DNA of 55,841 nt from Chiloscyllium plagiosum (Eukaryota). A program made the translations under genes and the position numbers. The stretch spans positions 80,607,241-80,663,081 of the forward strand of contig NC_057718.1 in NCBI RefSeq assembly GCF_004010195.1. The letters run 5' to 3'. Each line of letters opens with the position of its first letter. Positions within the stretch are counted from its first letter, which is position 1. Below, piece by piece: positions 1,096 through 55,841 of this stretch. The notes under the pieces were generated by a model. It saw nothing but the letters and a program-made list of their open reading frames with translations, had not been told where the DNA came from and made no database searches.

Positions 1096-1150
1096 TCAAT
1101 CATATAAATAGAAAGCGGGATGCACCACCAGTATTTCATTCGGAGGCTCC

Positions 1151-1188
1151 CTGAAGATGTTACCTAGTATGGTGACGAAACATCTGAA
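1151..1188 (+). ncRNA. Degenerate hammerhead ribozyme motif in the PLE 3' UTR
   Basis: CTGAAGA t GTTACC-tagtat-GGTGAC GAAA C ATC. Stem II pairs, but the GTC triplet appears changed to ATC, consistent with CpG decay. Confidence 0.65.
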
Positions 1189-3549: not shown

Positions 3550-5085
3550 TTATGTCCTGTTCAAAACTCACTTTCCTGAACTATATTTGTGTCAATAAAT
3601 TTAACTACCATGTCTTTGGCCCCTTCATCCAAATCATTTATATGAATTGTAAAGTGTTGAGGTCCTGGCAGCAACTCCTCTAGGACATCAGTCATGATAC
3701 ACAGCCATCGTGCAAAACACCTATTTTTCCCATTCTCTGCTTCGAATGAACCAGCCAATCACGTTACACCCAACACCATGAGCTTTTATATTCCACAATA
3801 ACCTATGAAGTGACACCTTATCAAGTGTCTCCTGGAAATCTCCGTGCAAGTCATCCACTCGTTCCCCTTTATCAATATCACAAGTTACTACTTCAAATAT
3901 TTTCTAGAAAGACCTTCCATCTAGATCTAGGATAAAATCCATCAGGTCCCAGGAGTCATCAACTCACAGTTTGAATAATTTACTCAGTACTACTTCCCTG
4001 ATAATTGTAATTTCATGCATTTTTCAGTCCTTTTCAATACCTGATTAACAGCTATCTCCAGGATGCTTCCTATTTCCTCTCCAGTGAAGACCAATATAAG
4101 CAATCTGTTCAATTCATCTGCCATCTCTTTATCCATTACTAATTCCCCAGACTTATTTTCTATAGGACCAACACTTACTTTGTTAACTGTTTTTCTTAAC
4201 ATCTGAAGGAACTTTTCCTGTCTATGAATGTATATTTAGCTAAATTTGTCTCACACTCTAATTTTCTGTCATCAATATTTTAGTATTTCTTTGGATTTTT
4301 AAAAAAAATTCTGTTCAATCTTCTAATCTGCCATCTATCTTTGTACATTTATACATCTTTTCTTTGAGGTTAATAACATTTTTGACTTTTTTTAGTTAGC
4401 CATAGATGACGGGATCATGCCATAGATTTTTTTTATTTGTTGGAATCAATATATTTTGTGTTTTCTGGAATATCCCCTTATTTGCCTATCCCATAACCTA
4501 AACAGCCAGTTAACTTCGACTAGCTCTGCTTTTATGCTCTCATAATGGCCATTGTTTATATTCAAAATGGTGGTCTTAGATCCACACTTCTCTCCCTTAA
4601 ACTGTATGCAAACTTCAACCATCATATGGTCACTGCCACCAAGGGATGCATTTATTATGAGGTCAGTAATTGGTCCGATCTTAATGCTCAAACCAGCTTC
4701 GTAAAGCCTGCTGTCTGGTTGGTACTACCCAAGCTAGTCTCAGAAATTTTCCCAAAATATTCAATTAATTCCTCACCTATACTATTTTTATCCAGTCTGA
4801 TTTTTCCAGTCTGTATATAGATTAAAATCCCCCATGATAATTGCTGTTTCGTTATTTCTTCCCTGATATCTGATCCTACATGGGTACTGTTAGGTGACTG
4901 TACAAAATTCTCTTTTGCCTTTATCATTCCTCACCCTTACCCAGACCGCTTCTATATCTTGGTTTCTGAATGTGGTCATCTCTCTTGATTGTATTAATAC
5001 CTTTAATTAACAGAGCTACTCCTCCACTTATTCCTAACTTTTTGTCCTTCCCTAATATCGCATGCCTTCCAAAATTTAGGTCCTA

Positions 5086-5550
5086 ATTTGATTTGATTTG
5101 ATTTGTTTATTGTCACGTGTACCTAAGTACAGTGAAAAACTTTGTTTACAGGCAGATCATAGCAAGCAAGCATATTCAGATCATCGGGTGGGACAAAAAC
5201 TTAGACAGAGGCATACAGGTTACATCACATCGGGCATACATTAGGCAAGATCAACATTAGCAAGATCAGAATTATTTGAAGTTAGAGAGTTCATTAATCA
5301 GTATAATAAAGACCAGGAAGAAGCTGTTACTGAAGTTCAAGCTTCTGTATCTTCTGCTTGACTTAAGATGTTGTAAGAGAGCATTACCAGGGTGGCATAT
5401 GTCTTTGATGTAGGCAGCCTTCCTCCGGCAACGAGCTATGTAAATGGAGTCCATGGATGGAAGGCTGGCTTCTGTGATGGTCTGGGCTGTGCATACAACC
5501 TTCTGCAGTTTCTTCCAGTCCTCGGCAGAGCAGTTGCCATATCATGCCAT
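5086..5550 (-). mobile_element. Rex1/Babar-like LINE 3' end
   Basis: IKDICHPGNALLQHLKSSRRYRSL C-terminal motif and (aaatc)n tail. Related pieces at 38180-38532 and 50480-50590. Confidence 0.6.
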
Positions 5551-5829
5551 TAATCAAGGTTATCTTGAAGCCACACCTCAGTAATGACCACTAGATCATA
5601 CTTATTTGTCTCAATTTGTACTACGAGTTCATCTGTTTTGTTTTGAATGCACTGTACCATCAAATGCAATGCCTTAAGTGTTGTTTTGTTATTTTTTAAT
5701 TCTAGTCTTACCTGCTGATTTGTCCCATAACCTGTATTATCTGTCCTTTCCTGTCGTTGTCTGTTTATTATTATTCCTTCCTTTATTGCCTTTTCCTCAC
5801 TTTTTGTTGCACCTCAACTTCCCAAATTT

Positions 5830-5949
5830 AAGGAGGGCCTGTGCCCGAAACGTCGAATCTCCTGTTCCCTGGATGCTGCCTGACCTGCTGTGCTGTTCCA
5901 GCAATAAAGTTTCAACTTTGATCTCCAGCATCTGCAGACCTCACTTTCT
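5830..5949 (+). mobile_element. Family A PLE/hammerhead insert, single arm
   Basis: gggc-ctgt-gcccgaaacgtcgaatc...tail. TSD cttcccaaattt at 5818-5829 and 5950-5961. 5'-truncated inside the core. Confidence 0.85.
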
Positions 5950-6619
5950 CTTCCCAAATTTGGGCCCTTGCCCCCACTATTTCACTTAAAACCCACATTA
6001 TCTCCCTGGTTATGTGGTTTGAAAGAGCATCATTCCAAATATGATTCAGGTGTAGACAATTCCCACAGTACAGATCCCACCTTCCCTAGTATTCTTGCCA
6101 GTAGCTTATGAACTGGAACCTACGCCAGTCTTTCAGCTATGCATTCATCTCTTTAACCTTGCTTATCCTTTTCAAATTTTCGCATGGGTCAGGTAATAAT
6201 CTAGAGATTGTTATCTTGATAGAGTTATTTGGTAGAGTGTATGTTTATTTTTTGCAGTTAGCTACGAAGTCATCTTCATACAATGCTGCAGAGTTCCTTA
6301 ATAGAACTTAGGTTTATGACCTATTTGAGCATCAAAGCAGGTGGAGACTGTGACACCCCAAGGTAGATGATAGCTTTTTCCTCTTTAATAATGGCCTTTC
6401 TCCAAGAACCAGCCATTAACAGACCCTATCAATAGCACAGTTAATGATGATAGCCCTCAATTTCTTCATGTTAGGACTCTGCTGCTAACCTTTGTGCTAA
6501 CCTCTCATTTGGCTGCTTGTCACTGCATGAATGCTGTCACAGAACCACACTTTGCTGAGTCACGAATTTCATCAACTCCCCCACTGATGTGCCAACCATT
6601 CTCCAAGTCCAGGGCTTAA

Positions 6620-9290
6620 GTGTGGAAGTATATAAGATCATGAGAGGCATGGTTAGGGTGAATGCACCGAATCTTTTCCCCAAAGGAATTGAGGACATCA
6701 GTTTAAGGTTAGAGGGGAAAGAATGAAAGGGACCTTGAGGGACAACTTTTTTACACAGAAGGTAGTAATCAGACAGAATGAGCTGCCAGCGGAAGTGGTA
6801 GGGGAGGGTACATTAACAATATTTAAAAGGCATTTGGACAAATACACGCATAGGAAAGGTTTATGGGCCAAGAGCAGGGAACTGGGTTTCGCATGGATGG
6901 ACATTTTGTCGGCATGGACCAGTTTGGGCTGAAGGGTCTGAAGATGAAAAGGGTATGTGAGAAAGGCACTATTGCAATAATCAATATGCAGGTGGACTGG
7001 GAAAATCTGGTTAGTAGCGAATCCCAACAGGCAGCTCTGGATTTGGTGATGGGCAATGAGGCAGACTTGATTTGGAAATTTAAGGTGAAGGAATCCCTAG
7101 GAGTAATAGAATTCACCCTGCAATTTTAGAGGGAGAAGCTGGAATCAGATGTCAGGTGTTACAATTGAATAATGATAAATACAAATACAAGAGGGAGCAC
7201 CTGGCCAGAGTTAAATTCAAAGGGGAGCCTAGCAGGGAAGATTATTGAGTAGTAATGGCAGAGGTAATTTGGGAGGCACAGTAGAAATTTAATCTGAGGA
7301 AGAAGAAACATATTAAGGAGGGGACAAGGCAACTACTGCTGACAAGAGAAGTCAGGAACAGCATAAAAGCAAAAGAAAAAGCATACAATGTGTGAATATT
7401 AGTGGGAATCCAGAAGATGAGAAGCCTTTACAAACCAGTAGAAGATAACTAAAAATGTAATAAACAAGGGAGAAGATGAAGTATGAGAGACAGTGAGCCA
7501 GTAATATAGATAGCAAGAGTTTTTTTTAAGATGTCTAGAGGTTAAGAGAGAGGTAAGAGTGGACATTGGACTGCTGGAACATGAGGCTGGGAAGGTAGTA
7601 ATGGGGAACAAAGAAATGATGGTGGCACTGAAAACTGATACAGTTTTCACAGTGGAAGATATTAGCAACGTACCAGAACTTCAAGAGTCAGGGGACAAAG
7701 ATAAGTGTAGTGATCACCATGATGGAGAAGATCTGCGAAGCTGAAAGATCTGAAGGTGGATAAATCACCTAGGATAGATAGACAATACACCAGAGGAGAT
7801 TGTTGAGGCATTGGTGGTAATCTTTCAGGAATCACTGGACTTAAAGTCCCGGAGAACTGAAAAATGGCTATTGTAATACCATGATTAAGAAGGGAGAGAG
7901 GCAAAAGACAGGAAACTATAGGCCGTTTTGCCTGACCTCAGTCATTGGTAAGATTTTAGAGTCCATCATTAAGGATGAGTTTGAGAGGTACTTGGAAGTA
8001 CATTATAAAATTGGGTTTAGTAAACACAGCTTCATCAAGGGAAGTCATGCCTGACAAATCTCTTAGCATTCTTTGAAGAGGCAATGAGTAAGTTAGACAA
8101 AGGAAAACCAGTGGATGTAATCTATTTGGACATCCTGAAGGCTTTTGACAAGGTACCGCACAGGAGGCTGCTAAATAGATAACAGCCCATGATGTTAAGA
8201 CCAAAGTACTGACATGAATAGAGAATTGGCTGACTAGCAGAACTCAGAATATACATAAAATAGAATTTCGGAATGGTAGCCGGTGACTTAGTGGAGTTCC
8301 ATGTTGGGACCACAACTGTTCACATTATACATTAGTGATCTGAACGAAGGAACTGAGGGCAATTTTGCTCAGTTTGCAGACCACACAAAGAAAGGTTGTG
8401 TGGTAGGTAGTGTTGATGTAACAAAGAAATTGCAGGAGGATTTAGACAGGTAAGAGGAGTGGGCAAAGAAGTGCCAGATGGAATACAATCAATATAATAC
8501 AATGCAAGTGTGATATTGTGCACTTTCATCGGAAGAATAGAGTTCTAGACTAAGGCAAAAGCTTAGGAAATCTGAAGCACAAAGGGACTTGGGAGACTTA
8601 GTTCAAGATTCACTTAAGGTTAACATGCCAGTACAGTTGGTAGTTAGGAAAGCAAATGCAATGTTTGCATTCATTTCAAGAGGGCTGGAATACAACAGAA
8701 ATGTACAGCTAAGGCTGCATAAGGCTCTGGTCAGGCTGCATTTGGAATATTTATAGCAGTTTTGTGCCCTGTATTTAAGGAAGGATGTGCTGGCCTTGGA
8801 GGGAGTCCATAGAATGATTTAGGGAACGTAGGCTTGTCATACGAGGTGCAGTTGAAAATTCTGAATCTGTGCTTGATGGTGTTTAGAAAGATAAAGGGGG
8901 GGATCTCATTGAAACTTACAAAATACTGAGAGGCCTAGATAGAGTGGATGTGGAGAATATATTTCCATCAGTAGGATTGTCTAGGACCTGAGGGCACAGC
9001 TTCAGATTGAAGAGATGGCCCTTTAGAACTAATATGTGGAGCAATTTCCTCAACCAGAGAGTGGTTAATCTTTGGAACTCATTACCGCAGAGGGCTGTGG
9101 AGGCCAAGTCATTGAGTGTATTTAAGATAAAGATAGTTTTTTTTTAATTGGTAAGGGGATCAAGGGTTATGGGGAGATGGCAGGAGAATGGATTTGAGAA
9201 ATATATATGCCATGATCAAACAGCAGGGCAGACTCAATGGGCTGAATGGCCTAATTCTGCTTCTCTATATTATGATCTTATGGTCTCCTG
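6620..9290 (+). mobile_element. Two adjacent CR1 remnants (3' end at 6620-6945, long ORF2 remnant at 6945-9290)
   Basis: FFTQKVV..NELP; LDLVMGNE; aaggcttttgacaaggtaccgcac (KAFDKVPH); FADHTK. Confidence 0.8.
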
Positions 9291-10791: not shown

Positions 10792-12703
10792 GTGAGTTGG
10801 AGTACAGTCATGGCAGACACTGCAAGACTGAAAGTAACGTTGCCTATTGCCAAACAAGTTTACTTCACAAATTAATCAGATAGAGTCATTTCGCAGTAAA
10901 TAGCAGCAAGAAAAAGGTCTCCTGAGTCAGTTGCCCACCTTTGCTAACAATTAAATTATATCCAACGAAGGAGATGTGAGTCAGCTTTCCTTTGAGACTA
11001 TTCTCTCCCAGCCAATCCATCTCCATTTTTATGAGGACCTGGCAACCCAAGCTATTTAAAACAGTCTATCAAGTAATGGAACTAGCTAAATGCATCAAGC
11101 AAGCAAGCATTTATCTCTCAAGCTTCATCTGTTCCTGCAGAATGTTTCCAAATGAAAGGTTTAATTACTTAAATGGATAAGGCATGCAATCTTGACCTAT
11201 GTGATGTGGAGCAGAATACTAATGAAGGTCAATCCTTATTCTATTGCTGCTTTCAATAGCTGCAGCACATGTTAGCTGTATGCAGTTATGCATCTTCAAA
11301 TGGCCTAATCTTACCCATTTCTCTGGCAAAAAAGGAAGTAACTTCAAATAAAATGCAATATTTAATGAATACTCTGAAACTAGTATACAAAGCATAACGT
11401 AACAGGATAGTCATGTGTGAAAATTATGAAACAGTTTAAAGTGCTATATCTTACTGTGAACCAGACAGATTGAAATACACGTTATTTCCATTGTGGAATT
11501 CATTAGTTTTTATTGCACAATCTTAGATTTAGCTCAATGTTAATTTTGTTTTGGCAATGTTTACAATTGCATAATATTTTAAAATATTTATATGGGCATT
11601 TGTTAACAAAGTGGTATTGTTTCTTCTTGATTCCATAAAGTTCAAAAGCATCTATAAAGTTGGTAGAATGTTTAAAATACAATACTGATGCAATACTTGA
11701 AGTGATTTATTTTGATGACTTTGTTACTGGATACTGTTATAAAGCAGAGGTTGACCCTCCTCTAAGAACTAAAACTGAAACACCTGTAGTCTGTAAAAAG
11801 AGCGCGAAAAATGGTGTAACCTGCTTTTCAACAACTTCTAGTGATTGAATAAAATACCTACCTTAAGAAAAAAAGCCCATAATTAGGAAAAGATGGCTTC
11901 ATTCTTTTTTCTTTTAAACCCTTAACTCCATTATATTACTAGATCCATAGTTCATTAATCTTGAGTTACACATTTTAGACTAATTCTACTTGTATAGAAC
12001 ATTGAACATGACTGTTTCTATCTTATATGAGCATTTTTTTTAAAACTCGTGATAAAGCATCCTCAATAATATTTTCATGACCTGCAACATATACAATCTG
12101 TAAATTAAATCCTTGAAACATGAGACTCAAACAAATTAATCTGGTGTTCTTGTCCTTAGTCTTTCCAGAAATGTCAAAGGATTGTAACAGGTATACACAA
12201 TAGTCTCTGATGCATTGTTTGCAATGTAAACATTAACATGTTGTAAAGCCATTACCAAACTCCATAACTTTTTTCAATCATTGAACATTTTTCCGGCGGA
12301 TATTGAGTTTTTTTGAAAAATAACTGATTCGCCTTTCAATTCCATAATAATCTTCCTGTAGCAACATAGCTCCAACACCTGCATCACCTGCATTGATGGC
12401 AACTTTGAAGGGTTTCAAAACATTTGGCATGGCTAAAACTAATGCAGTAGTTAACTCTGCTTTTAAATTCTTAAATACCTCCTGGCGTTGTTCTGTCCAC
12501 TGAAATTTTGTTTTTTTTTAACAAATCTTGGTACAAATTTTCTGTAGAATTCACTCAATCCTAAAAATCGTAGATGGTCTTTGTCTTCATGTTCCTTGGT
12601 GTCATCTGTTATTTTCGATGTTGTGCCCTAAAATATCACTTCCACCTTCACAAGTTCTGTTTTTGACAATGTTATGACCGATCTTGCCCTCCATAGACTT
12701 TTC

Positions 12704-12916
12704 GAGGAGAAAGTGAGGACTGCAGATGCTGGAGATCAGAGCTGAAAATGTGTTGCTGGAAAAGCGCAGCAGGTCAGGCAGCATCCAAGGAACAGGAGAA
12801 TCGACGTTCCTGGAGCATTGCTTCCTGAAGAAGGGCTTATGCCCGAAACGTTGATTCTCCTGTTCCTTGGATGCTGCCTGACCTGCTGCGCTTTTCCAGC
12901 AACACATTTTCAGCTC
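12704..12916. mobile_element. Family A fold-back insert (tail on minus arm)
   Basis: Inverted arms. TSD ctccatagact at 12689-12699 and 12914-12924. Plus-strand core CTGAAGA at 12825. Confidence 0.88.
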
Positions 12917-14478
12917 CATAGACTCTTACAGAGCTCTGTTAAATGCTCCATGTGATCTTTCCACAAATGGCAAAAGATCAATAAGTCATCTTTGTAGATG
13001 GCAAATTAGTCAATCCTGCAACAACTCTGTTCATAGGCCATTGAAAAGCGGCTGGCACGTTTTTCATTCCAAAGGGCATCACTTTAAATTGATATAGCCC
13101 ATTTGGGGTTACAAAAGCAGAAACATCTTTCACTCTTTGTTACTCTTTGCCAGTAATCACAAAGTAAATCCAACTTTGTGATGTAAGTGACTTGTCCTAC
13201 TTTTTTCACAAAATCCTCCAGTGGGTATATGAGTCAGATTTAGTCATAGTGTTGAACTTCCAATAGTTTACACAGAATTGTTGAGTACCAGCAGGTTTGG
13301 AAGCTAACATGCTAGGCGAACTCCACTCACTTTGATCCATCTCTGTGATGTCCTCCTGGAGCATTGCTTCCTCTTCCTTCTGAACCTGCACTGCTTTGAG
13401 AGGATTATGCCTGTAGGTGTGTTGTTTTATTGGAACAGCATTCCCTACGTCAACCTCCTACTAGGGCAATAGTCTTCCCTATTCTATTTCTTCATGGATC
13501 CTCATCACACTGTAACAAGTCTTTCAAATCAGTTCTCTGTTCCATGGACAGATAACTTACTACCCTACCCCATCCCTTGAGGACTTCCTCATTATTCAAT
13601 TTATTTGGAGGCACATCAAACTCCAAATCATCGGGATTTGATTCCTCACTTTGAGTGGCAGTAACAAATACCTGTTTCTCTGGATCCCTTTCCCTGTCTT
13701 AGTAATATTTTAGCATGTTCAAATGACATACCCAAAATATGTTTTCCTATCTGGCATCTTTACCAGATAATTCACCTGACCTAACTTCTTCTCGATCTGA
13801 CAGGGACCACTAAACCTTGCTTTCGAGGGATTTCCTACCCTGGTAACGGCACCAATACTTTATCCCCATGGGCGAACGTATAAATTTTAGATTTTTTATC
13901 TGCTCCTTGCTTCATTAAGTGCTGTGCACCTTCAAATGTTGTAAAACTAATTCACCTACTCTCTTCAATCTTTCTCTCACCTCCGATACATAATCCAACT
14001 GTGAAATTCTGACTTCGGACCTATCAACTTTTCTTAATTAATTTCAAAGGCCCTCTGAATATCAATTTGAATGAGGTAAACTGAGTCAATTAATTGGAGC
14101 ATCTCTAATTGCAAATCATATATATGGGATACCTTTATCCCATTCATTTGGGTAATCCTGACTTTAAGCCCTCAACATGGTCTTTAGGGTCTGATGCTAC
14201 CTTTCCAATGCTCCCTGGGATTCAGGACTGTATACACTTGATGCAAAGTGTTTGATTCTAAACTGTCCATGACCACCTTAAATAATTTGACAATAAAATT
14301 GGACCCCTGGTCTGACTGAATCCCACTGGGTAATCCATAACTCTTAAAGAAAGCAAGCAACTTTTTGTCAACCATTTTTGCCTTTACATTCTGTAATAGA
14401 ATTGCCTAAGAAAACCCAGTAGACACATCCATTACAGTTAGCAAATACTGGTTCCTACGTTTGGTTTTCGGGAGAGGA

Positions 14479-14688
14479 GATGGAAATGTGTTGCTGGAAA
14501 AGCGCAGCAGGTCAGGCAGCATCTAGGGAACAGGAGAATCGACGTTTCGGGCATTAGCCCTTCTTCAGGAAGGGCTAATGCCCGAAACGTCGATTCTCCT
14601 GTTCCCTACATGGTGCCTGACCTGCTGCGCTTTTCCAGCAACACATTTCCATCTCTGATCTCCAGCATCTGCAGACCTCACTTTCTCC
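14479..14688. mobile_element. Family A fold-back insert (tail on plus arm)
   Basis: Inverted arms meet at cccttcttcaggaagggc. TSD tttcgggagagga at 14466-14478 and 14689-14701. Confidence 0.9.
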
Positions 14689-14841
14689 TTTCGGGAGAGG
14701 ACCTGCATAATCAATTATAACCCATATAAAAGGTTCTTCAAATGTGGGAATTGGCATCAAGGGTGTTGATGTGATCACCTCCTATGGCTTTCCCACCATC
14801 TGACACATATGACAGGTACGGCAAAATTCAATCTTTACGTA

Positions 14842-16153
14842 CAGAGGAACCTCAGTTATCCAAATATCAATTATCTGAATTTCATATTATCCGAACAAGA
14901 TCTCAAAGTCCCACAAAAACATTACCTCAAAGAGATAAGTGAATTCGGATTACCTGTACTGAAAAACATGTGAAAATTCTGGGAAAATGCTGGTAGGTAT
15001 AGGGAAAGCTGGATGACGAAAGAAATTGGAGATTTGGTTAAGAAAAAGAAGGAAGCGTATGTCAGGTATAGACAGAATAGATCGAGTGAATCCTTAGAAG
15101 AGTATAAAGGCAATAGGAGTATACCTGAGAGATAAATCAGGAAGGAAAAAAGGAGACATGAGATAGCTTTGGCAATTAGAGTTAATGAGAATCCAAAGGA
15201 ATTTTACAAATAGATTAGGGACAAAAGGGTAACTAGGGAGAAAATAGGGCCCCTCAAAGATCAGCAAGGCAGCCTTTGTGTGGAGCTGCAGGAGATGGGG
15301 AAGATACTGAACAAGTATTTTACATCAGTATTTACTGTGGAAAAGGACATGGAACATATGGAATGTAGGGAAATGGATGGTGACATCTTGAAAAATGTCC
15401 ATATTACAGAGGAGGAAGTGCTGGATGTCTTGAAATGCATAAAGGTGGATAAATCCCCAGGACCTGATCAGGTGTACCCGAGAACCATGTGGGAAGCTAG
15501 GAAAGTGATTGCTGGGGCTATTGCTGAGATATTTGTATCATCGTTAGTCACAGGTGAGATGCCAGAAGACTGGAGGTTGGCTAACGTGGTGCCACTTTTT
15601 AAGAAAGGTGGTAAGGACAAGCCAGGGAACTATAGACCAGTGAGTATCACTCTAAAAACAGAGAAACACAAGCACCTCAAGCAACAGAGGCTGGAGTTTT
15701 TTTTACGTAATGGGTAGTTACACAGCCCTTTGCAAAATTAAGTGCTTTATTCCTGTCACTTCACCGAGCCATTCCTGAAAAATATGGCAGAGAAAATAAA
15801 CATATGTGCGAGGCAGTGCTTCTGTCTTTCTATCACAAAACTGAGTTCAGCAGAAATGCTCTTGTGATTGTAGAAGCTGTTCAGGACCTTGCTTGATGCT
15901 GGGATTTCATATATTTATGTGCTGGTAAGGGTTTAGTCCTTCTCAGTTTAACCTGCAAATTGCAGAATGCAAAGATTAATTTGTTTAAATAGCAGATTTA
16001 TCAAAATTATAGGTTTAAACAAACTCTCCAGTAAAACGCAGCGTTAGATCAGTATGGTTTCCCTTGTTTAATGTCACATCAATTATCCAAATAATCAGTT
16101 AACCGAACTAAATATTGCTTGCCCGTCTTGTTCAGATAATCGAGGTTCCTCTG
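14842..16153. mobile_element. Tigger/pogo-like non-autonomous DNA transposon containing a CR1 fragment
   Basis: TIRs cagaggaacctcagttatcc ... gataatcgaggttcctctg, flanked by TA on both sides. Inserted into the Gypsy integrase. Confidence 0.8.
14990..15645 (+). mobile_element. CR1 ORF2 internal fragment
   Basis: KSPGPDQVYPR...PEDWRLANVVPLFKKGGKDKPGNYRPVS. Close to the copy at 47210-48396. Confidence 0.85.
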
Positions 16154-20245: not shown

Positions 20246-21423
20246 CTACTTCTGCCTTGAATCAATTCAATTACACAGACTGCCACTTCTTGGTGGAAAA
20301 GAATTCCATTGGCTGACAGCCATCTGAGAGAAATAATTTCCCCTAATCGCTGTTTTAGTGGGAGTTCTCTTGTTCTAAAACTGTCTCTTGGTTCTGATTT
20401 CTAATATTAATACAATTCTTCTAGAACCTGTCAAAACTGCAGGGATCATTTTACCTCCTGACTCTCTTTAATTTCTGAGATAAATAAACATAAATAAAAG
20501 ATATTATCACAGAAGGTAAAGATTTGTTCTGCATCATTCCCTTGTGCACATTTCCATTTATTGATTTTCTCGTCAGTGATACCTGTATCTGGTTGTCTTA
20601 TATTTAACAGTTTTAGTTGCAGTAGACTGGCTCGTACATAGTAGAGATGGAGTTAGATAATCCTGTAACAGCCTCTGGGAGAAGATCTGAGCAAAGTACA
20701 AGTTCCATCTAGCCTTAATTCAAATCCAGGGGTATTAGCATTAATTGAATGGGAGCCTGTGCTCTTTTTTGCTCAGTTATTAAGCCTCAGCTGATTGGAT
20801 ATGACTGTGACAGAATCTTTTAATATAAGTCCATGAACTATGTTGGTTGAAGAGCTTCAAAAAAATTGCCAAGACATATGTTGAATTTGTTTCTTAGTCA
20901 ATGGCACGTGGACAACTGTGATTCGTTGTCAGAGGAAGGAGGCCTTTGAAATTATAGCCAGTTAATTCTGCCAGATCAAGTCCTGACATGCAGTACTTTT
21001 GCTTTATTTAGGTGAATGCAGTACTGTAGGGCAGAGCGGTGACCTTGTCAAGAAATCACAGGATGATATCCCATGTAATTGTATGAAAAGGAACAGATTC
21101 AAAAAAGTATAACCCTTCTAAGAATCAGATGACATGCTGTAAATCATCAAAGAAACTGGGTGTTTCAGGCCCAATTGTAACTTTGAAGTTTAGAACTTTT
21201 CTTCTTTGTATTCAAGAAAATTGATGCACAAAATCTCCACTGATAAATCAGGGCATCTTGTCTTGTTAGAGTCCATTGCACCTTGCAGAATTACTGTACC
21301 GGTCATCTAACGTTTGTTTACTTGGAACCATTTTCCTACATGAGGTGCCTCCATGGTCAATGGCTATATTTACCTTGAACCCTTCATCCATGCAAGCATT
21401 GGTCTTATAATATCAGCTTGTTG

Positions 21424-21635
21424 ATGGAAATGTGTTGCTGGAAAAGCGCAGCAGGTCAGGCAGCATCTAGGGAACAGGAGAATCGACGTTTCGGGCATTA
21501 GCCCTTCTTCCTGAAGAAGGGCTAATGCCCGAAACGTCGATTCTCCTGTTCCCTAGATGCTGCCTGACCTGCTGCGCTTTTCCAGCAACACATTTCCATC
21601 TCTGATCTCCAGCATCTGCAGACCTCACTTTCTCC
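21424..21635. mobile_element. Family A fold-back insert with apparently perfect arms
   Basis: TSD ataatatcagcttgttg at 21407-21423 and 21636-21652. Intact plus core at 21511-21538. Confidence 0.92.
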
Positions 21636-21791
21636 ATAATATCAGCTTGTTGTCAGCTAACAGTGAAAGTTGCAGGGAGAACTATGGAATCAACTTTCTC
21701 AGAAAGTACAGCTGTTGTTTGGTAATATATTTCTAAATTTGAAGTATTTAGGATACCAAAAATTCTATTGCTTATGGTGATATTTTAGCAT

Positions 21792-21939
21792 TTTAATTTT
21801 TTTATAAATGTATTCACAAATCTTATTTCCAATAGCAGAGGAACAGAGGGGTAGGCTGAAAAATTTTTTTTCAGTCTACCCCTCTGTTCCTCTGCTATTG
21901 GAAATAAGATTTGTGAACACATTTACAAAAAAAATTAAA
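21792..21939. repeat. Near-perfect palindrome with arms of about 72 bp
   Basis: ttcacaaatcttatttccaatagcagaggaacagaggggtaggctgaaaaa / tttttcagtctacccctctgttcctctgctattggaaataagatttgtgaa. Confidence 0.9.
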
Positions 21940-23253
21940 TTTTTTAAAAATGATTTATGATTTTAAAGGTTACATTTTCTGACCACTCATTCCAAATTTC
22001 AAAAGCAAAACATTATGGCTGCTGGAAACCTAAAATTAAAACCGGAAGTGCTGGGAATATTGAGAAGGTCAAGCAGCAAATGTGCAGACCGAAATAGTGT
22101 TAATGAGTAGAATTTTAGCCTTTCTGAAGTGGTAATAATGATAGCAACTGACATAACTTCATCATTCGAGACTCCAAAGATCAGATTCTCAATGTGAAGA
22201 AAGGTTCTCCAGATTAAGTTCCCTGGCCTTGGGTGATGAATGGAGTGGAAAGAGACTTATTTTGTATATCTACATCTCATTATTAACATAGCTGGCAGTA
22301 TTAACATCACACTTAGAAATTTTCTTTGTATTAAAGAAAATTAATGCACAAAATTTCCACTGATAAAACAGAGCATTTTGTCTTGTCTTGTCAGAGTCCA
22401 TTGCATCTTGCAGAATTACTGTACCAGTCATCTATCGTTTGTTTCCATGGAACCACTTTCCTACATGAGGTGCTTCCATGGTCAATGGCCACATTTATCT
22501 TGAACCCTTCATGCATGCAAGCATTGGTCTTACAACATCAGCTTGTGTCAGCCCAACTCAGCCACCAGTTCATTCCAAGATTTTGGAACTGACTGATAGT
22601 TAGGACTTATAAGCTCGTGCCAGCTAATTCTGCACGAGGAACATCTGGCATTCTGTACAACTATGCAAAGGTTTAGTGCTGATATCGAACCACGCATATT
22701 TGGGTCTTAGTCTGCTTTTTACAAAGTCTATAGTGCTTAATATAGATAGTTTATTTGAAGATTTTAGTAGAAAATGAAGTGTTCCTGTAGAGGCAGGTAA
22801 CTTCAGCATCCTAGCCTGCTTTGTAATGCACAACACCTTTAGAGCTGCTATAGAGTTGGGAATCCTTTGTGATATAACCTACATTTTAGCATGTAAGGTG
22901 TTGAGTGCTGCTTTAGAAGCAGGCAACCTTTGTGGTATCACCTGCTGTCTGCAGAAGGAGGTGGTCTGTTTATAATAGCACTTAAGTGCAAATGTCTTAA
23001 TCAGATAGGATATGGAAATGTTGCTGTGTGACATGGTGTGAGTTCAACATCAGAGCTTCAATATGTACCCACAGCTTAGAGAGCAAACATATAGTATTGA
23101 CCTGAAGAAAATGTATGTAAGTCAAAGTGAATAAGCATTTAGTGGTGTAAGGATGGATTTCAGTCAGTCAGGGGAATACTTCCAAAGTCAGCTATGGGCT
23201 AGTCTGATTTCAGTTTGGCTGTTTGGCCATGGTCAGTCAGATGATTGGTCTTT

Positions 23254-23474
23254 GAGGAGAAAGTGAGGTCTGCAGATGCTCAAGATCAAAGTTGAAACTT
23301 TATTGCTGGAACAGCACAGCAGGTCAGGCAGCATCCAGGGAACAGGAGATTCGACGTTTCGGGCACAGGCCCTTCTTCAGGATTCCTGAAGAAGGGCCTG
23401 TGCCCGAAACGTCGAATCTCCTGTTCCCTGGATGCTGCCTGACCTGCTGTGCTGTTCCAGCAATAAAGTTTCAA
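23254..23474. mobile_element. Family A fold-back insert with complete hammerhead cores on both strands
   Basis: TSD cagatgattggtcttt at 23238-23253 and 23475-23490. Centre ttcttcaggattcctgaagaa. Confidence 0.92.
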
Positions 23475-23899
23475 CAGATGATTGGTCTTTTGCAAGTGCT
23501 GGGAATCCATGCCCGGGGTCGTGGTCAGTCTTTGAGACAAGCATAGGTAGCCTGGGGACTTCATGTGGTATGGTCTTGAGAGATCAGACAAGGGGATGTG
23601 ACATAGTCAGTCAGGGCTGTCCTGCCAAGTCTGTCCAGGGAATTTGGACCATAATGAATCATGGGTATTTGGTCACTAACAGTCAAGAGACTTCTCAGGG
23701 CATTTCTTAAAGTCTTAGGGAAAACAGGCTGATCATGTCTGAGGATAGATTTCATTCATTGTACTGGGATGCTGAGGAAATTGTGACAATTGCAGATAGT
23801 ACGGTGATACCTCATTGTTTATAGGAAGATACTGGAAGCTCTCAAAATAGGAGTGGCTATTCTGCTTCTAGATGGGGAGGATGAAGGGCCAAGAGAGCA

Positions 23900-39575: not shown

Positions 39576-39720
39576 CTGAAAATACTGGAATCTGCATTGA
39601 AAATAACAAATGCTGGAGATCACAGTGGGTCAGACAGCATCCATGGATAGTGAGCAAGCTAACTTTGAGTCTAGGTGACTCTTCATCAGAGCTGAAGTAA
39701 AGTGTGGAGGGGACAGCATT
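39576..39720 (-). mobile_element. PLE 3' fragment of a related family with a decayed hammerhead
   Basis: Minus: agct CTGATGA A GAGTC-accta-GACTC AAA GTT agct..., followed by ggatgctgtctgacc...ctccagc. Confidence 0.6.
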
Positions 39721-41397: not shown

Positions 41398-44300
41398 CTT
41401 GGTCTGGCCTACATGTGACTCTAGAGCCACAGCAATGTGTTTGACTCTCAACTGCCCTCTGAAATTGCCGAGCAACCACTAAGTTGTATCAATCACTACA
41501 AAGTCACAACAAAGAAATGAAACCGGACAGCCCACCTGGCACCGACCTTGGAACCGGAAAAGACAATGACAAAAGCACGAACAGCCCTGTCAACCATGCA
41601 AAGTCCTTCTTACCAACATCTGGGGACTAGTGCTGAAATTGGGAGACCTGTCTCACAGACATGTCAAGCAACAGCCTAACGTAGTTAATTTATTGGAATC
41701 GTATCTTACAGATAACACCCCAGACACCACCATTACCACCCTTGGATAAGTCCTGTCCCACCGGCAGGACAGACCCAGCAGATGTGGTGACACAGTGGTA
41801 TACAGTCAAGAGGGAATTGCCCTGGGAGTGCTTGATATCGACTCCAGACTCCATGAAGTTTCATGGCTCCAGGTTAAACATGGGCAAGGAAACCTCTTAC
41901 TGGTTACCATGTATCGTCCTCCTTCAGCTGACGAATCAGTACTCCACGTTGAACAAACTTGGAGGAAGCACTTAGGGTGGCAAAGGTGCAAAATGCATCC
42001 TGGGTGGGGGATTTCAAAGTCCACCACCGAGAATGGCTCAGCAGCAGCATTACTAATCAAATTGGTTGGGTCAAAAGGATATAACTGCTAGAGTGGGTCT
42101 GCGGCAGGTGGTGAAGGAACCAGCAAAAGGAAAAAACATACTTGACCTCATCCTTACTAATCTGCTGGCTGCAGAAGCATCTGTCCATGACAGTAAAGGT
42201 GACCACCACACTGTCCTTGTGGAGATGAAGTCCCGCTTTCATGTTGAGAATAGCCACCTTCGCGTTGTGAGGCACGAAATGGGACAGACTTCAAACCAAT
42301 CTAGCAGCTTGACTGGGCATCCATAAGGCACTGTGGGCCATTAACAGCAGCAGAACTGTACTCCAGCGGAATCTGCAATCTCATGGCCTGGCATATCCCC
42401 CATTCAACCATTACCATCAAGCCAGGGGATCAACCCCTGATTCAGTGGAGAGTGCAGAAGGCATGTCAGGAGCAGCATCAAGCATACCTAAAAAGGAGGT
42501 GTCAACCTGGTGAAGCTACCAAACAAGATTACTTGTGTGCCAAATGGCATAAACAACAAGTAATAGACAGAGCTAAGCAATCCCACAACCAACGAATCAG
42601 ATCTAAGCTCTGCGGTCTTTCTACATCTAGTTATGAATGGTGGTGGACTATTAAACAACTCATTGAAGGAGGTTCCACAAATATACCCATCCTCAATGAT
42701 GGAGGAGCCCAGCACATCAGTACAAAAGATAAGGCTGATGCATTCGCGACAATCTTCAGTCAGAAGTGCCAAGTGGATGATCCATGTTAGGCTCCTCCAG
42801 TGGTCTGCAGCATCACAGATACCAGTCTCCAGCCAATTCAATTCACTCCACGGGCAGCACAGTGGCTCAGTAGTGAGCACTGTTGCCTCATAGCGTGAGG
42901 GACTCAGGTTCGATTCCAAACTTGGGCAACTGTCTATGTGGAGTTTGCACATTCTCCCCATGTCTGCGTAGGTTTCCTCCGTGGGCTCCGGTTTCCTTTC
43001 ACAGTCCAAGATGTGTAGGTCAGGTGAATTGGCCATTCTAAATTGCCCATAGTTAGGTGCATTCGTCAGAGGTAAATGGGTCTAGGTCGGTTACTCTTTG
43101 AAGGGTCAGTGTGGACTTGTTGGGTCAAAAGACCTGTTTCTACACTGTAGGGAATCTAATCTAATCTAATATACATGATATCAAGTAAGCTGGCGGCACT
43201 GGATACTGCAAAGGCAATGGGCCCTGATAACATTCCAGCAAAAGTACTGAAGATGTGTGCTCCAGAACCTGCTGCTCTCCTAACCAAGCTCTTCCAGTAC
43301 AGTTACAACATTGGCATTTACCCGACAATGTGGAAAATTGCCCAGGTATGTCTTGTACACAAAAAGTAGGACAAATCTAACCCAGCCAATTACCACCCAA
43401 TCAGAATATTCTCCATCAATGAAGTGATGGAAGGGGTCATCAACAGTGCTATCAAGCAGCACCTGCTCAGCAACAACCTTCTCAGTGAAGCAGAGTTTGG
43501 GTTTCGCCAGGGTCACTCAGCTCCTGACCTCATGACAGCCTTGGTTCAAACATGGACAAAAGAGCTGAATTCCAGGAGGTGAGATGAGAATGACAGCCTT
43601 TGACATCAAGGCCACATTTGACCGAATATGGCATCAAAGAGCGCTGGCAAACTGGAATCAATGGATATCAGGAAGCAAACACTGCTGGTTAGTGTTATAC
43701 CTGGCACAAAAGGAAGATGGTTGCGGTTGTGGAAGGTCAATCAGCTCAGCTGCAGGACTTCTCTGCAGGCGCCCCTCCGGGTCATGTCTTTGGCCCAACA
43801 ATCTTCAGCTGCTTCATCAATGACCTTCCCTCTGTCATAAGGTCAGAGTGGGGATGTTCGCCATGATTGCAGTGTTCAGCAACATTCGCGACTCCTCGGA
43901 TACTGAAGCAGTCCGTGTTCAAATGCAACAAGATCTGGACAATATCTAGGCTTGGGCCGACAAGTAACATGCATGCTACACAAATGTCAGACAATGACCA
44001 TCATCAATAAGAGACACTCTAACTACCGCCCTTTGACATTCAACAGAATTACCATCACTGAATCCCTCACTGTCAACATCCTTGGGGTTACCATTGACCA
44101 GAAACTCAACTGAACTCACCACATAAAAATAGTGGCTACAAGAGCAGGTCAAACTATGGATACTGTGGCGAGTAACTCACCTCCTTACACCCCAAAGTCT
44201 ACCACCATCTACAAGGCGCAAGTCAGGACTATGATGGAATTCTCCCCACTTGTCTGGATGGGTGCAGCTCCAACAACACTCCAGAAGCTTGACACCATCC

Positions 44301-47477: not shown

Positions 47478-48398
47478 TGAGATAGTTTTGGCAAATAGAA
47501 CTAAGGAGAATCCAAAGGGTTTTACAAATACATTAAGGACAAAAGGGAACTAGGAAGAGAATAGGGCTCCTCAAAGATCAGCAGGGCGGCCTTTGTGTGG
47601 AGCCACAGAAAATGGGGGAGATATTAAATAAGTATTTTGCATCAGTATTTACTGTGGAAAAGGATATAGAAGATATAGACTGTAGGGAAATTGATGGTGA
47701 CACCTTGCAAAATGTACAAATTACAGAGGAGGAAGTGCTGGATGTCTTGAAATAGGTTAAGGTGGATAAATCCCCAGGACCTGATCAGGTGAACCCGAGA
47801 ACTCTGTGGGAAGCTAGAGAAGTGATTGTTAGGCCTCTTGCTGAGATATTTGTATCATCGATAGTCACAGGTGAGGTGCCGGAAGACTGGAGGTTGGCAA
47901 ATGTGGTGCCACTGTTTAAGAAAGGTGGTGAGGACAAGCCACGGAACTATAGACCAGTGAGCCTGACCTCGGTGGTGGGCAAGTTGTTGGAGGGACAGGA
48001 TGTACATGTATTTGGAAAGGCAAGGATTGATGAGGGATAGTCAACATGGCTTTGTGCGTGGGAAATCATGTTTCACAAATGTGACTGAGTTTTTTGAAGA
48101 AATAAAAAAGAGGACTGATGAGAGCAGAGCGGTGGACATGATCTATATGGACTTCAGTAAGGCGTTCGTCAAGGTTCCCCATGGGAGACAGGTTAGCAAG
48201 GTTAGATCTCATGGAATACCAGGAGAACTAGCTATTTGGATACAGAACTGGCTCAAAAGTAGAAGACAGAGGGTGGTGGTGGAGGGTTGCTTTTCAGACT
48301 GGAGGCCTGTGATCAGTGGAGTGCTACAAGGATCAGTGCTGGGACCACTACTTTTCGCCATTTATATAAATGATTTGGATGTGAGCATAAGAGATATA

Positions 48399-48640
48399 CA
48401 GAGGAACCTCGATTATCCGAATGAGATGGCCAGGCACTGTTTTGTTTGGATAACTGATTTTTTGGTTAATTGATTTCCTCTGGGGCTCGGAGTTTTCTGT
48501 GAAGTCTGCTCCCTGCTCAGGAGACTAGGCAGCAGCAGCACACTGCGAGCTAGCCCCACTCTCTGCCTGCCCCCAAAATCCTGTCCTACCCCATCCACTC
48601 CCCCCCCCAAACTCCACCCGCACCCAACACCATCCACCCG
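48399..48640. mobile_element. Tigger-like end, same family as 14842-16153
   Basis: TA followed by cagaggaacctcgattatccgaa. The second TIR is missing. Confidence 0.7.
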
Positions 48641-55345: not shown

Positions 55346-55841
55346 GCTGGAAATGTGTTGCTGGAAAAGCGCAGCAGGTCAGGCAGCATCCAGGGAACAG
55401 GAGAATCGACGTTGCGGGCATAAGCCCTTCTTCAGGAATGAGGAAAGTTTGTCCAGCAGGCTAAGATAAAAGGTAGGGAGGAGGGACTTGGGGGAGGGGC
55501 GTCGGAAATGTGATAGGTGGAAAGAGGTCAAGGTGAGGGTGATAGGCCAGACTGGGGTGGGGGCGGAGAGGTCGGGAAGAAGATTGCAGGTTAGGAAGGC
55601 GGTGCTGAGTTCGATGGATTTGACTGAGACAAGGTGGGGGGAGGGGAAATACCTTGTCTCAGTCAAATCCATCGAACTCAGCACCGCCTTCCTAACCTGC
55701 AATCTTCTTCCCCACCTCTCCGCCCCCACCCCAGTCTGACCTATCACCCTCACCGTGACCTCTTTCCACCTACCACATTTCCGACGCCCCTCCCCCAAGT
55801 CCCTCCTCCCTACCTTTTATCTTACCCTGCTGGACAAACTT
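55346..55841. mobile_element. Long family A fold-back including upstream PLE 3' UTR, cut by the window end
   Basis: Left arm to 55635, 15-nt G-rich spacer, right arm from 55651. The minus core has GAAA changed to GCAA. Confidence 0.88.

What the first reader, a model, noticed from the sequence alone, without database searches (positions are those of the whole stretch)
23381..23418. Ultra-minimal hammerhead ribozyme with a loopless palindromic helix III (probably an obligate dimer)
Seen: gattc-CUGAAGA-A-GGGC(cugu)GCCC-GAAA-C-GUC-gaauc. Helix I can be gauuc/gaauc, and helix III is only the self-complementary ACGU. Across copies the GGGC/GCCC stem is kept while the loop varies (ttat, taat, ctgt, tttt) and position N7 is A or T. 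Other families use different but still paired stems (GAGTC/GACTC at about 39667-39681; GTTACC/GGTGAC at 1159-1176). Known: this matches the hammerhead core consensus, and minimal PLE hammerheads are reported to work as dimers. Inference: cleavage after GUC needs two copies.
Basis: partly seen in the sequence, partly recalled or inferred. Interest (0 to 1): 0.75.

Follow-up and report, generated by a model that had tools for sequence, protein, structure and literature searches.

The report
Penelope retrotransposon minimal hammerhead, palindromic stub
This is a real minimal hammerhead-ribozyme motif of an already described kind, carried by a very abundant Penelope-like jumping gene; this copy is one arm of a short mirror-image insertion whose RNA is predicted to fold shut, so it is likely an inactive leftover rather than a new ribozyme.

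Summary
The motif is present as written at 23386-23413 and far exceeds chance. It is the loopless minimal hammerhead described for Penelope-like elements (PLEs; PMC4209133). The genome holds 77,181 exact family matches; longer copies of the same subfamily follow a GIY-YIG ORF end by 158 nt. Between families, helix I, stem II and the helix III palindrome (ACGU versus AGCU) co-vary, which fits dimer function; no cleavage was tested. Corrections: this copy is the right arm of a 185-bp head-to-head palindrome with a 16-bp target duplication, predicted to lock the ribozyme in a 91-bp hairpin; the fifth helix I pair comes from the junction; the two other-family copies cited are damaged. In 101 sister copies, 49 begin 28-34 nt upstream of the cleavage site (around AUUC, likely the RNA start), none at it; 31 of 37 inverted pairs are long plus short, none long-long or short-short. 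Templates were therefore likely uncleaved. The scan reported such stubs before in this and other genomes. Known kind, low interest.

The parts
23386..23413 (+). Minimal type I hammerhead core (C3 to C17); predicted cleavage after 23413
   Evidence: sequence
23394..23405 (+). Stem II GGGC/GCCC with 4-nt loop CUGU, preceded by the extra nucleotide A23393
23409..23412 (+). Self-complementary ACGU: helix III possible only between two molecules or two tandem copies
   Evidence: sequence; AGCU in another family
23382..23385 (+). Native 5' strand of helix I (AUUC); inferred RNA start at A23382
23414..23417 (+). 3' strand of helix I (GAAU); C23418 pairs only with the junction-derived G23381
23382..23475 (+). 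Right arm: short pLTR stub ending at the proximal end point (62-63 nt after the cleavage site)
23254..23382 (-). Left arm: inverted pLTR stub with the extra ~35-nt tail (ends about 98-99 nt after the cleavage site)
23353..23380 (-). Second hammerhead core on the opposite strand; helix I only 2 bp
23238..23253 (+). Left target-site duplication, 16 bp (outermost bases ambiguous with the element)
23475..23490 (+). Right target-site duplication

Best explanation
The motif is the minimal hammerhead in the terminal repeat (pLTR) of an endonuclease-bearing Penelope-like retrotransposon, and this copy is one arm of a head-to-head stub insertion that is predicted to be inactive as a ribozyme. Shown: the core, its family, its link to a GIY-YIG ORF, the palindrome, the target duplication and the end distributions. 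Inferred: the element RNA likely starts at the A of AUUC, four bases before the core; the element protein would nick both target strands about 15 bp apart and reverse-transcribe uncleaved RNA from two internal sites (about 63 and 98 nt past the cleavage site), each cDNA running off the RNA 5' end after 95-130 nt; the two cDNAs would be joined head to head through 1-4 nt of microhomology, giving one long arm, one short arm and a target duplication. In the autonomous element the ribozyme would cleave after GUC only weakly, as a dimer through ACGU and likely with help from the element protein. Confidence by step: PLE min-HHR identity 0.97; this copy inactive 0.9; RNA start at AUUC 0.7; two-ended priming 0.6.
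For: 77,181 exact family matches, control 0; 11,888 of this subfamily. A ctgt-subfamily copy lies 158 nt after an ORF end that matches Pfam GIY-YIG PF01541 above cut-off; the tttt subfamily too, with a CX4CX2C linker, which PMC8557442 assigns to Neptune/Nematis and not Penelope/Poseidon. Covariation between families in helix I (C-G, A-U, U-A at pair 1), stem II and helix III (G-C in 94 of 100 listed GGAGC copies, hand count). Palindrome folds to a 91-bp hairpin, -194 kcal/mol. Of 101 copies anchored downstream of the cleavage site: 0 begin 0-1 nt from it, 2 at 2 nt, 29 at 4-27 nt, 49 at 28-34 nt, 21 further up; solo copies 19 of 42 at 28-34. 3' ends are bimodal at about 63 and 98 nt; 37 inverted loci: 31 long+short, 6 with one irregular end, 0 long+long, 0 short+short; duplications found for 67 of 101 rows, mode 14-15 bp. 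Base before AUUC, after dropping 36 overlap junctions and 13 G's that a partner arm or native context could template: G 25, A 15, T 11 (hand count of 100 listed rows; P = 1.8e-4 against 25%), as copying a cap would give. A second family has TATAAA 32 nt before the place where 6 of 11 printed copies begin. PMC11167929: anole PLE protein nicks and extends both strands, starts at two internal sites that define the tail, and uses unprocessed RNA.
Against: No cleavage, promoter or RNA-end assay. One poly(A) single-cell run (about 2% read) shows no pile-up of starts or ends at AUUC or at the cleavage site; such a library is poorly suited to see either. The upstream box in this subfamily is only TTTTAT, not a consensus TATA. 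In the first 16 copies starting exactly at AUUC only 3 had G in front (read by eye). The G excess rests on a hand count with my own exclusions. The sample is from the first 25 Mb of one contig and from near-consensus copies. The reverse transcriptase domain was not examined, so the clade rests on the endonuclease side only. In the anole element the hammerhead overlaps the ORF start; here the first conserved-looking ATG is 162 nt after C3, so the analogy is not exact.
Confidence: 0.8

Rival explanations
1. The palindrome arises by fold-back self-priming of a single cDNA or antisense template rather than by two separate primings; the hammerhead identity is unchanged.
For: PMC3846280 proposes self-priming on an antisense template for head-to-head PLE palindromes (passages). 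The two arms are 92 of 92 identical, and one locus carries the same N7 variant in both arms (L145).
Against: Both arms end at discrete PLE end points, one long and one short in 31 of 31 classifiable loci. Junctions vary, with deletions on either arm and filler bases. Arm identity is also expected for young copies of one source.
Confidence: 0.2
2. The pile-up at AUUC is a reverse-transcription stall or template-jump hot spot in front of the hammerhead fold on a longer RNA, not the RNA start.
For: The break lies exactly at the 5' strand of helix I; microhomology with target duplications blurs the end by a few bases; 21 of 101 copies read through it.
Against: The enzyme has already passed the stable stem II when it stops; G excess before AUUC; TATAAA at -32 from the pile-up in another family; read-through copies are expected from the downstream pLTR of tandem transcripts.
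Confidence: 0.2
3. One reading: a working obligate-dimer ribozyme that cleaves host or element RNA here.
For: Core intact; isolated 38-mer folds helices I and II as its minimum-energy structure, -10.0 kcal/mol; this copy has the best helix I in the window.
Against: A transcript crossing the locus is predicted to form the long hairpin; the partner core is antisense; the native upstream sequence is absent; no RNA reads on the unique flanks in the one run laid (shallow); double-hammerhead dimer -18.9 versus -20.0 for two monomers and -24.1 for a competing dimer (the model ignores core contacts).
Confidence: 0.06
4. The palindromic unit is itself a non-autonomous mobile element (retrozyme- or MITE-like) that is copied as a unit.
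For: The exact central junction of this copy recurs 1,442 times.
Against: Many different junctions exist and a few microhomologies explain the common ones; no tandem monomers; no copies starting at the cleavage site; arm ends coincide with the ends of solo copies.
Confidence: 0.05

Closest known systems
Minimal hammerheads (min-HHR) of metazoan Penelope-like elements (Cervera and de la Pena 2014, PMC4209133)
   Same: Type I core, no loop 3, palindromic 15.2-16.2, extra nucleotide between 9 and 10.1, G10.1-C11.1 pair, 4-bp helix I, location in the pLTR, mostly truncated single copies, opposite-strand pairs close together.
   Different: Stem II is 4 bp rather than 7-8 bp as in Schistosoma; copy number (77,181 exact matches) is well above the 4,000-9,000 given there for coelacanth and Xenopus; cartilaginous fishes are not named in the parts I read (supplements not seen).
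Poseidon of Anolis carolinensis, PAc (Frangieh et al. 2024, PMC11167929)
   Same: Hammerhead about 60-100 nt before two internal reverse-transcription start points that define an optional tail; uncleaved RNA as template; no ends at the cleavage site.
   Different: There the ORF starts at stem II and the start points are inside the ORF; here the likely ATG is 162 nt after C3. This family has the CX2-5CxxC linker that Penelope/Poseidon lack.
Inverted-pLTR insertions with one-sided tail and target duplication (Adineta Pen2a, PMC3846280; general scheme, PMC8557442 Fig. 2 legend)
   Same: Head-to-head inverted pLTR, 30-40-bp tail at one end only, one target duplication around the unit.
   Different: Here the unit is reduced to the two stubs with no ORF between, in thousands of copies; duplications are 14-15 bp rather than 8-10 bp.
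Diminished-stem-III hammerheads of Lunse, Weinberg and Breaker (RNA Biol 14:1499)
   Same: PLE-associated, dimer-cleaving, as cited in PMC6765202 (passages).
   Different: Paper not held; whether it lists this family is unknown.

Membership tests
PLE minimal hammerhead (min-HHR) | Core CUGANGA...GAAA...UH with G10.1-C11.1 and an extra base after A9 | tested here: met
PLE minimal hammerhead (min-HHR) | Palindromic 15.2-16.2, no loop 3 | tested here: met
   ACGU here (59 of 63 ctgt copies C-G); AGCU in another family
PLE minimal hammerhead (min-HHR) | Helix I of 4-5 bp | tested here: met
   4 native bp in the ctgt subfamily; interrupted by U.U in ttat and tttt
PLE minimal hammerhead (min-HHR) | Located in the pLTR of a PLE | tested here: met
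   158 nt after a GIY-YIG ORF end in L129 and L037; partial tandems in L115
PLE minimal hammerhead (min-HHR) | Self-cleavage as a dimer | not testable with these tools
   Only folding energies and papers
Rfam hammerhead families | Covariance-model match | tested here: not met
   0 matches at gathering threshold in the window; no hammerhead model at E <= 10 on L037:1400-1700
Endonuclease-bearing PLE | C-terminal GIY-YIG endonuclease ending just before the pLTR | tested here: met
   PF01541 24.3 and 24.8 bits, cut-off 22.6
Endonuclease-bearing PLE | Telomerase-like reverse transcriptase in the same ORF | not testable with these tools
   Not readable in the loci held
Endonuclease-bearing PLE | Inverted 5'-truncated pLTR, one-sided 30-40-bp tail, target duplication | tested here: met
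Neptune/Nematis clades | CX2-5CxxC linker before the endonuclease | tested here: met
   CX4CX2C in the tttt subfamily copy L091; not seen directly for ctgt; definition from PMC8557442
Neptune/Nematis clades | Placement in a reverse-transcriptase tree | not tested
   No RT sequence examined
Retrozyme (non-autonomous hammerhead retroelement) | Tandem monomers bounded by cleavage sites, no ORF link | tested here: not met
   0 of 101 copies begin at the cleavage site; family is linked to an ORF

The most novel reading that the evidence does not exclude
In this PLE family the hammerhead sits at the very 5' end of a capped RNA and upstream of both reverse-transcription start points, so cleavage would decap the message and cut the priming leader from the upstream ORF. 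It would then act as a dimer- and protein-gated brake on the element, not as a processing step of its replication, and the stubs would record a protein dimer priming both target strands from two different sites of uncleaved RNA.
Probability: 0.25. Interest if true: 0.55.

Novelty: new member of a known kind. Interest (0 to 1): 0.2.

Why it matters
The ribozyme itself is a published type, so the finding adds a high-copy member only. What has some value is the footprint: tens of thousands of young stubs show that the copied RNA was not cut at the hammerhead, that copies pile up just upstream of the core, and that inverted units pair one long and one short end. These counts bear on two questions that the papers read leave open, the role of PLE hammerheads (PMC8557442) and the origin of inverted pLTRs (PMC3846280), and they agree with the in vitro results for the anole element.

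Tried and rejected
Rfam scans: no hammerhead match. DNA search of the genome with the 92-bp arm returned nothing because common words are skipped; patterns were used instead. Open frames of 700-2,242 aa listed looked like read-through tandem ORFs but were unreadable stretches, not real frames: rejected. MAFFT alignment of 13 family representatives misaligned stem II, so pairs were counted by anchoring; stem II pairs within each family there are fixed by my patterns and carry no weight. The ttat example folded had a damaged GAAA and was replaced by L012. In one search I entered 0 ends for the 35-60 nt bin by mistake; one search shows up to 4 of 16, so that row is not used. Sequencing runs: no RNA holder listed on record; the one raw RNA run gave reads on both strands, almost all from other copies, with no start or end pile-up: inconclusive. 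Literature: 'Penelope + shark + hammerhead ribozyme' gave 1 paper, in which shark refers to the shape; 'Penelope-like elements + cartilaginous + Neptune' gave 1 listing, not read; 'Penelope + pLTR + twin priming' gave 0. Lunse et al. is not held. Look-up of earlier findings by sequence gave nothing.

Full report
Observation. The sequence at 23381-23418 is as reported. A loopless hammerhead descriptor (CUGANGA, optional extra base, stem II of 3 bp or more, GAAA, N-N' pair, UH) finds 7 hits in the window, all of one repeat family, against 0.05 per window in 100 Markov shuffles; only this copy has a helix I of 4 bp or more. Rfam does not recognise it, which is unsurprising for a motif without helix III.

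Local anatomy. The motif is the right arm of a perfect inverted repeat, 92 of 92 pairs, 23291-23475, centred on 23383. The left arm carries a second core on the minus strand (23353-23380) and runs about 35 nt further, to about 23254. A 16-bp duplication flanks the unit (23238-23253, 23475-23490), so it is one insertion. Three more such palindromes lie in the window near 12701-12916, 14477-14689 and 21422-21635. In copies with native upstream DNA the core is preceded by ...ctgctcattc. Thus g23381 belongs to the partner arm and native helix I is 4 bp; in the ttat and tttt subfamilies the third pair is U.U (19 of 27 and 28 of 30 copies). A transcript across the locus is predicted to form a 91-bp hairpin with helix II pairing near 1e-19.

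Family. The genome is 3.56 Gb. A 30-nt family pattern has 77,181 exact matches, control 0; this subfamily 11,888; a loose core pattern 397,355 against 32,189 for the control. Walking upstream in longer copies leads through a pyrimidine-rich 158-nt spacer into an ORF end that matches Pfam GIY-YIG (L129, 24.3 bits, cut-off 22.6). The tttt subfamily does the same and shows a CX4CX2C linker, a mark of Neptune/Nematis in PMC8557442 (passages). The reverse transcriptase was not examined. That the host is a shark is recalled and echoed by earlier scan notes; I did not test it.

Is the fold under selection? Within a family constancy is descent. Between families the pairs change together: helix I pair 1 is C-G (GGGC, GGAGC families), A-U (GUUAC, GUCRC) or U-A (GAGUC); pair 2 is U-A, A-U or C-G; stem II pair 2 is G-C, U-A or A-U; the 15.2-16.2 pair is C-G, or G-C in the GGAGC family (14 of 14 held; 94 of 100 listed, hand count), so helix III stays a palindrome (ACGU or AGCU). 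Those families have 453, 168 and 8,050 matches to their patterns. These are the features of the min-HHR of PMC4209133 (parts 1-2 of 4 of the text read; supplements not seen): no monomer activity, low activity of dimers and trimers. In the nearest-neighbour model the double-hammerhead dimer of the 38-mer scores -18.9 kcal/mol, two monomers -20.0 and a competing dimer -24.1; the model omits core contacts, but it fits weak or assisted cleavage. PMC11167929 (parts 1-2 of 4 read) found that the anole PLE hammerhead cleaves only with the element protein and is not needed for insertion in vitro.

What the copies record. I anchored on 31 nt downstream of the cleavage site (14,413 matches), fetched the loci of the first listed copies (plus L011 and L033-L062) and recovered 101 copies under the same rule (one search had 107 before the rule was applied). 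5' ends: none 0-1 nt from the cleavage site, 2 at 2 nt, 29 at 4-27 nt (24 of them in inverted junctions), 49 at 28-34 nt, 21 beyond. So the templates were uncut, and copies stop around the A of AUUC. 3' ends cluster near 63 and 98 nt, the PLE tail pattern. Of 37 loci with an inverted partner, 31 are long+short, 6 have one irregular end, none is long+long or short+short; solo copies are 23 long, 17 short, 2 other. Duplications were found for 67 of 101 rows, mostly 14-15 bp. For a start site at AUUC: the context TCATTCC fits the initiator consensus (recalled); a T-rich box lies at -32 to -27; another family has TATAAA 32 nt before the place where 6 of 11 printed copies begin; and G is over-represented before AUUC, 25 of 51 after dropping 36 overlap junctions and 13 possibly templated G's from 100 listed rows (hand count; P = 1.8e-4). 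Against: only 3 of 16 in the smaller set, and one shallowly read RNA run shows no end pile-up. D. virilis Penelope has an internal promoter (PMC2377424, passages), so a start inside the pLTR has precedent.

Mechanism. Shown: motif, family, ORF link, palindrome, duplication, end statistics. Inferred: the protein nicks both strands, primes at two internal sites of uncleaved RNA, both cDNAs run off the RNA 5' end, and they join by microhomology. The exact junction here recurs 1,442 times among many others. PMC3846280 (passages) offers self-priming instead; the strict long+short pairing and junction variety favour two primings but do not exclude it. Cleavage, if it happens in the autonomous RNA, would remove the first 32 nt and separate the priming leader from an upstream ORF, so it is not how these copies were made.

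Novelty. The ribozyme type, its dimer rationale, the inverted pLTR and the one-sided tail are all in print. My searches found no paper on this family in cartilaginous fishes or on twin priming in PLEs, but the library is partial and Lunse et al. was not available. The scan holds 125 earlier notes with these words in at least 16 genomes; the 8 shown reach the same reading; they are unchecked and not independent support. My reading of the identity, the locked copy and the start site was recorded before that look-up; the test for an extra G was prompted by their mention of a capped RNA. Verdict: real, known kind, this copy likely inactive; interest 0.2.

Noticed in passing
window 12701-12916, 14477-14689, 21422-21635: Three more head-to-head stubs of the same family (ttat and taat subfamilies), each with one long and one short arm and a flanking duplication.
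   Followed up: partly
window 55346-55841: Longer minus-strand copy with native 3' region, followed by a ~400-bp inverted self-match that reaches the window end; its core has GCAA in place of GAAA.
   Followed up: partly
window 1103-1184: Copy of a second PLE hammerhead family (8,050 pattern matches) with a clear TATAAATA box about 47 nt before the core.
   Followed up: partly
window 21790-21940: A 151-bp inverted repeat (91% identity) with AT-rich ends, unrelated to the hammerhead family; looks like a MITE or other foldback element.
   Followed up: no
window 23281-23282: Two adjacent substitutions from the family sequence in the unpaired tail of the left arm, while both paired arms match the reference copy L037 exactly.
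   Followed up: no
window 15214-15717, 42305-42790, 47967-48473: Stop-free frames that read like fragments of LINE (CR1/L2-type) ORF2; label from recall, not tested.
   Followed up: no
L115:1087-1631 (minus strand): Three hammerhead copies in direct tandem, 224 and 320 nt apart, the kind of arrangement in which a cis dimer could form; inserted in a short-period minisatellite.
   Followed up: partly
G000, GGAGC-stem family (L148-L159): PLE hammerhead family with AGCU helix III, CUA cleavage triplet and TATAAA 32 nt before the common 5' end.
   Followed up: partly
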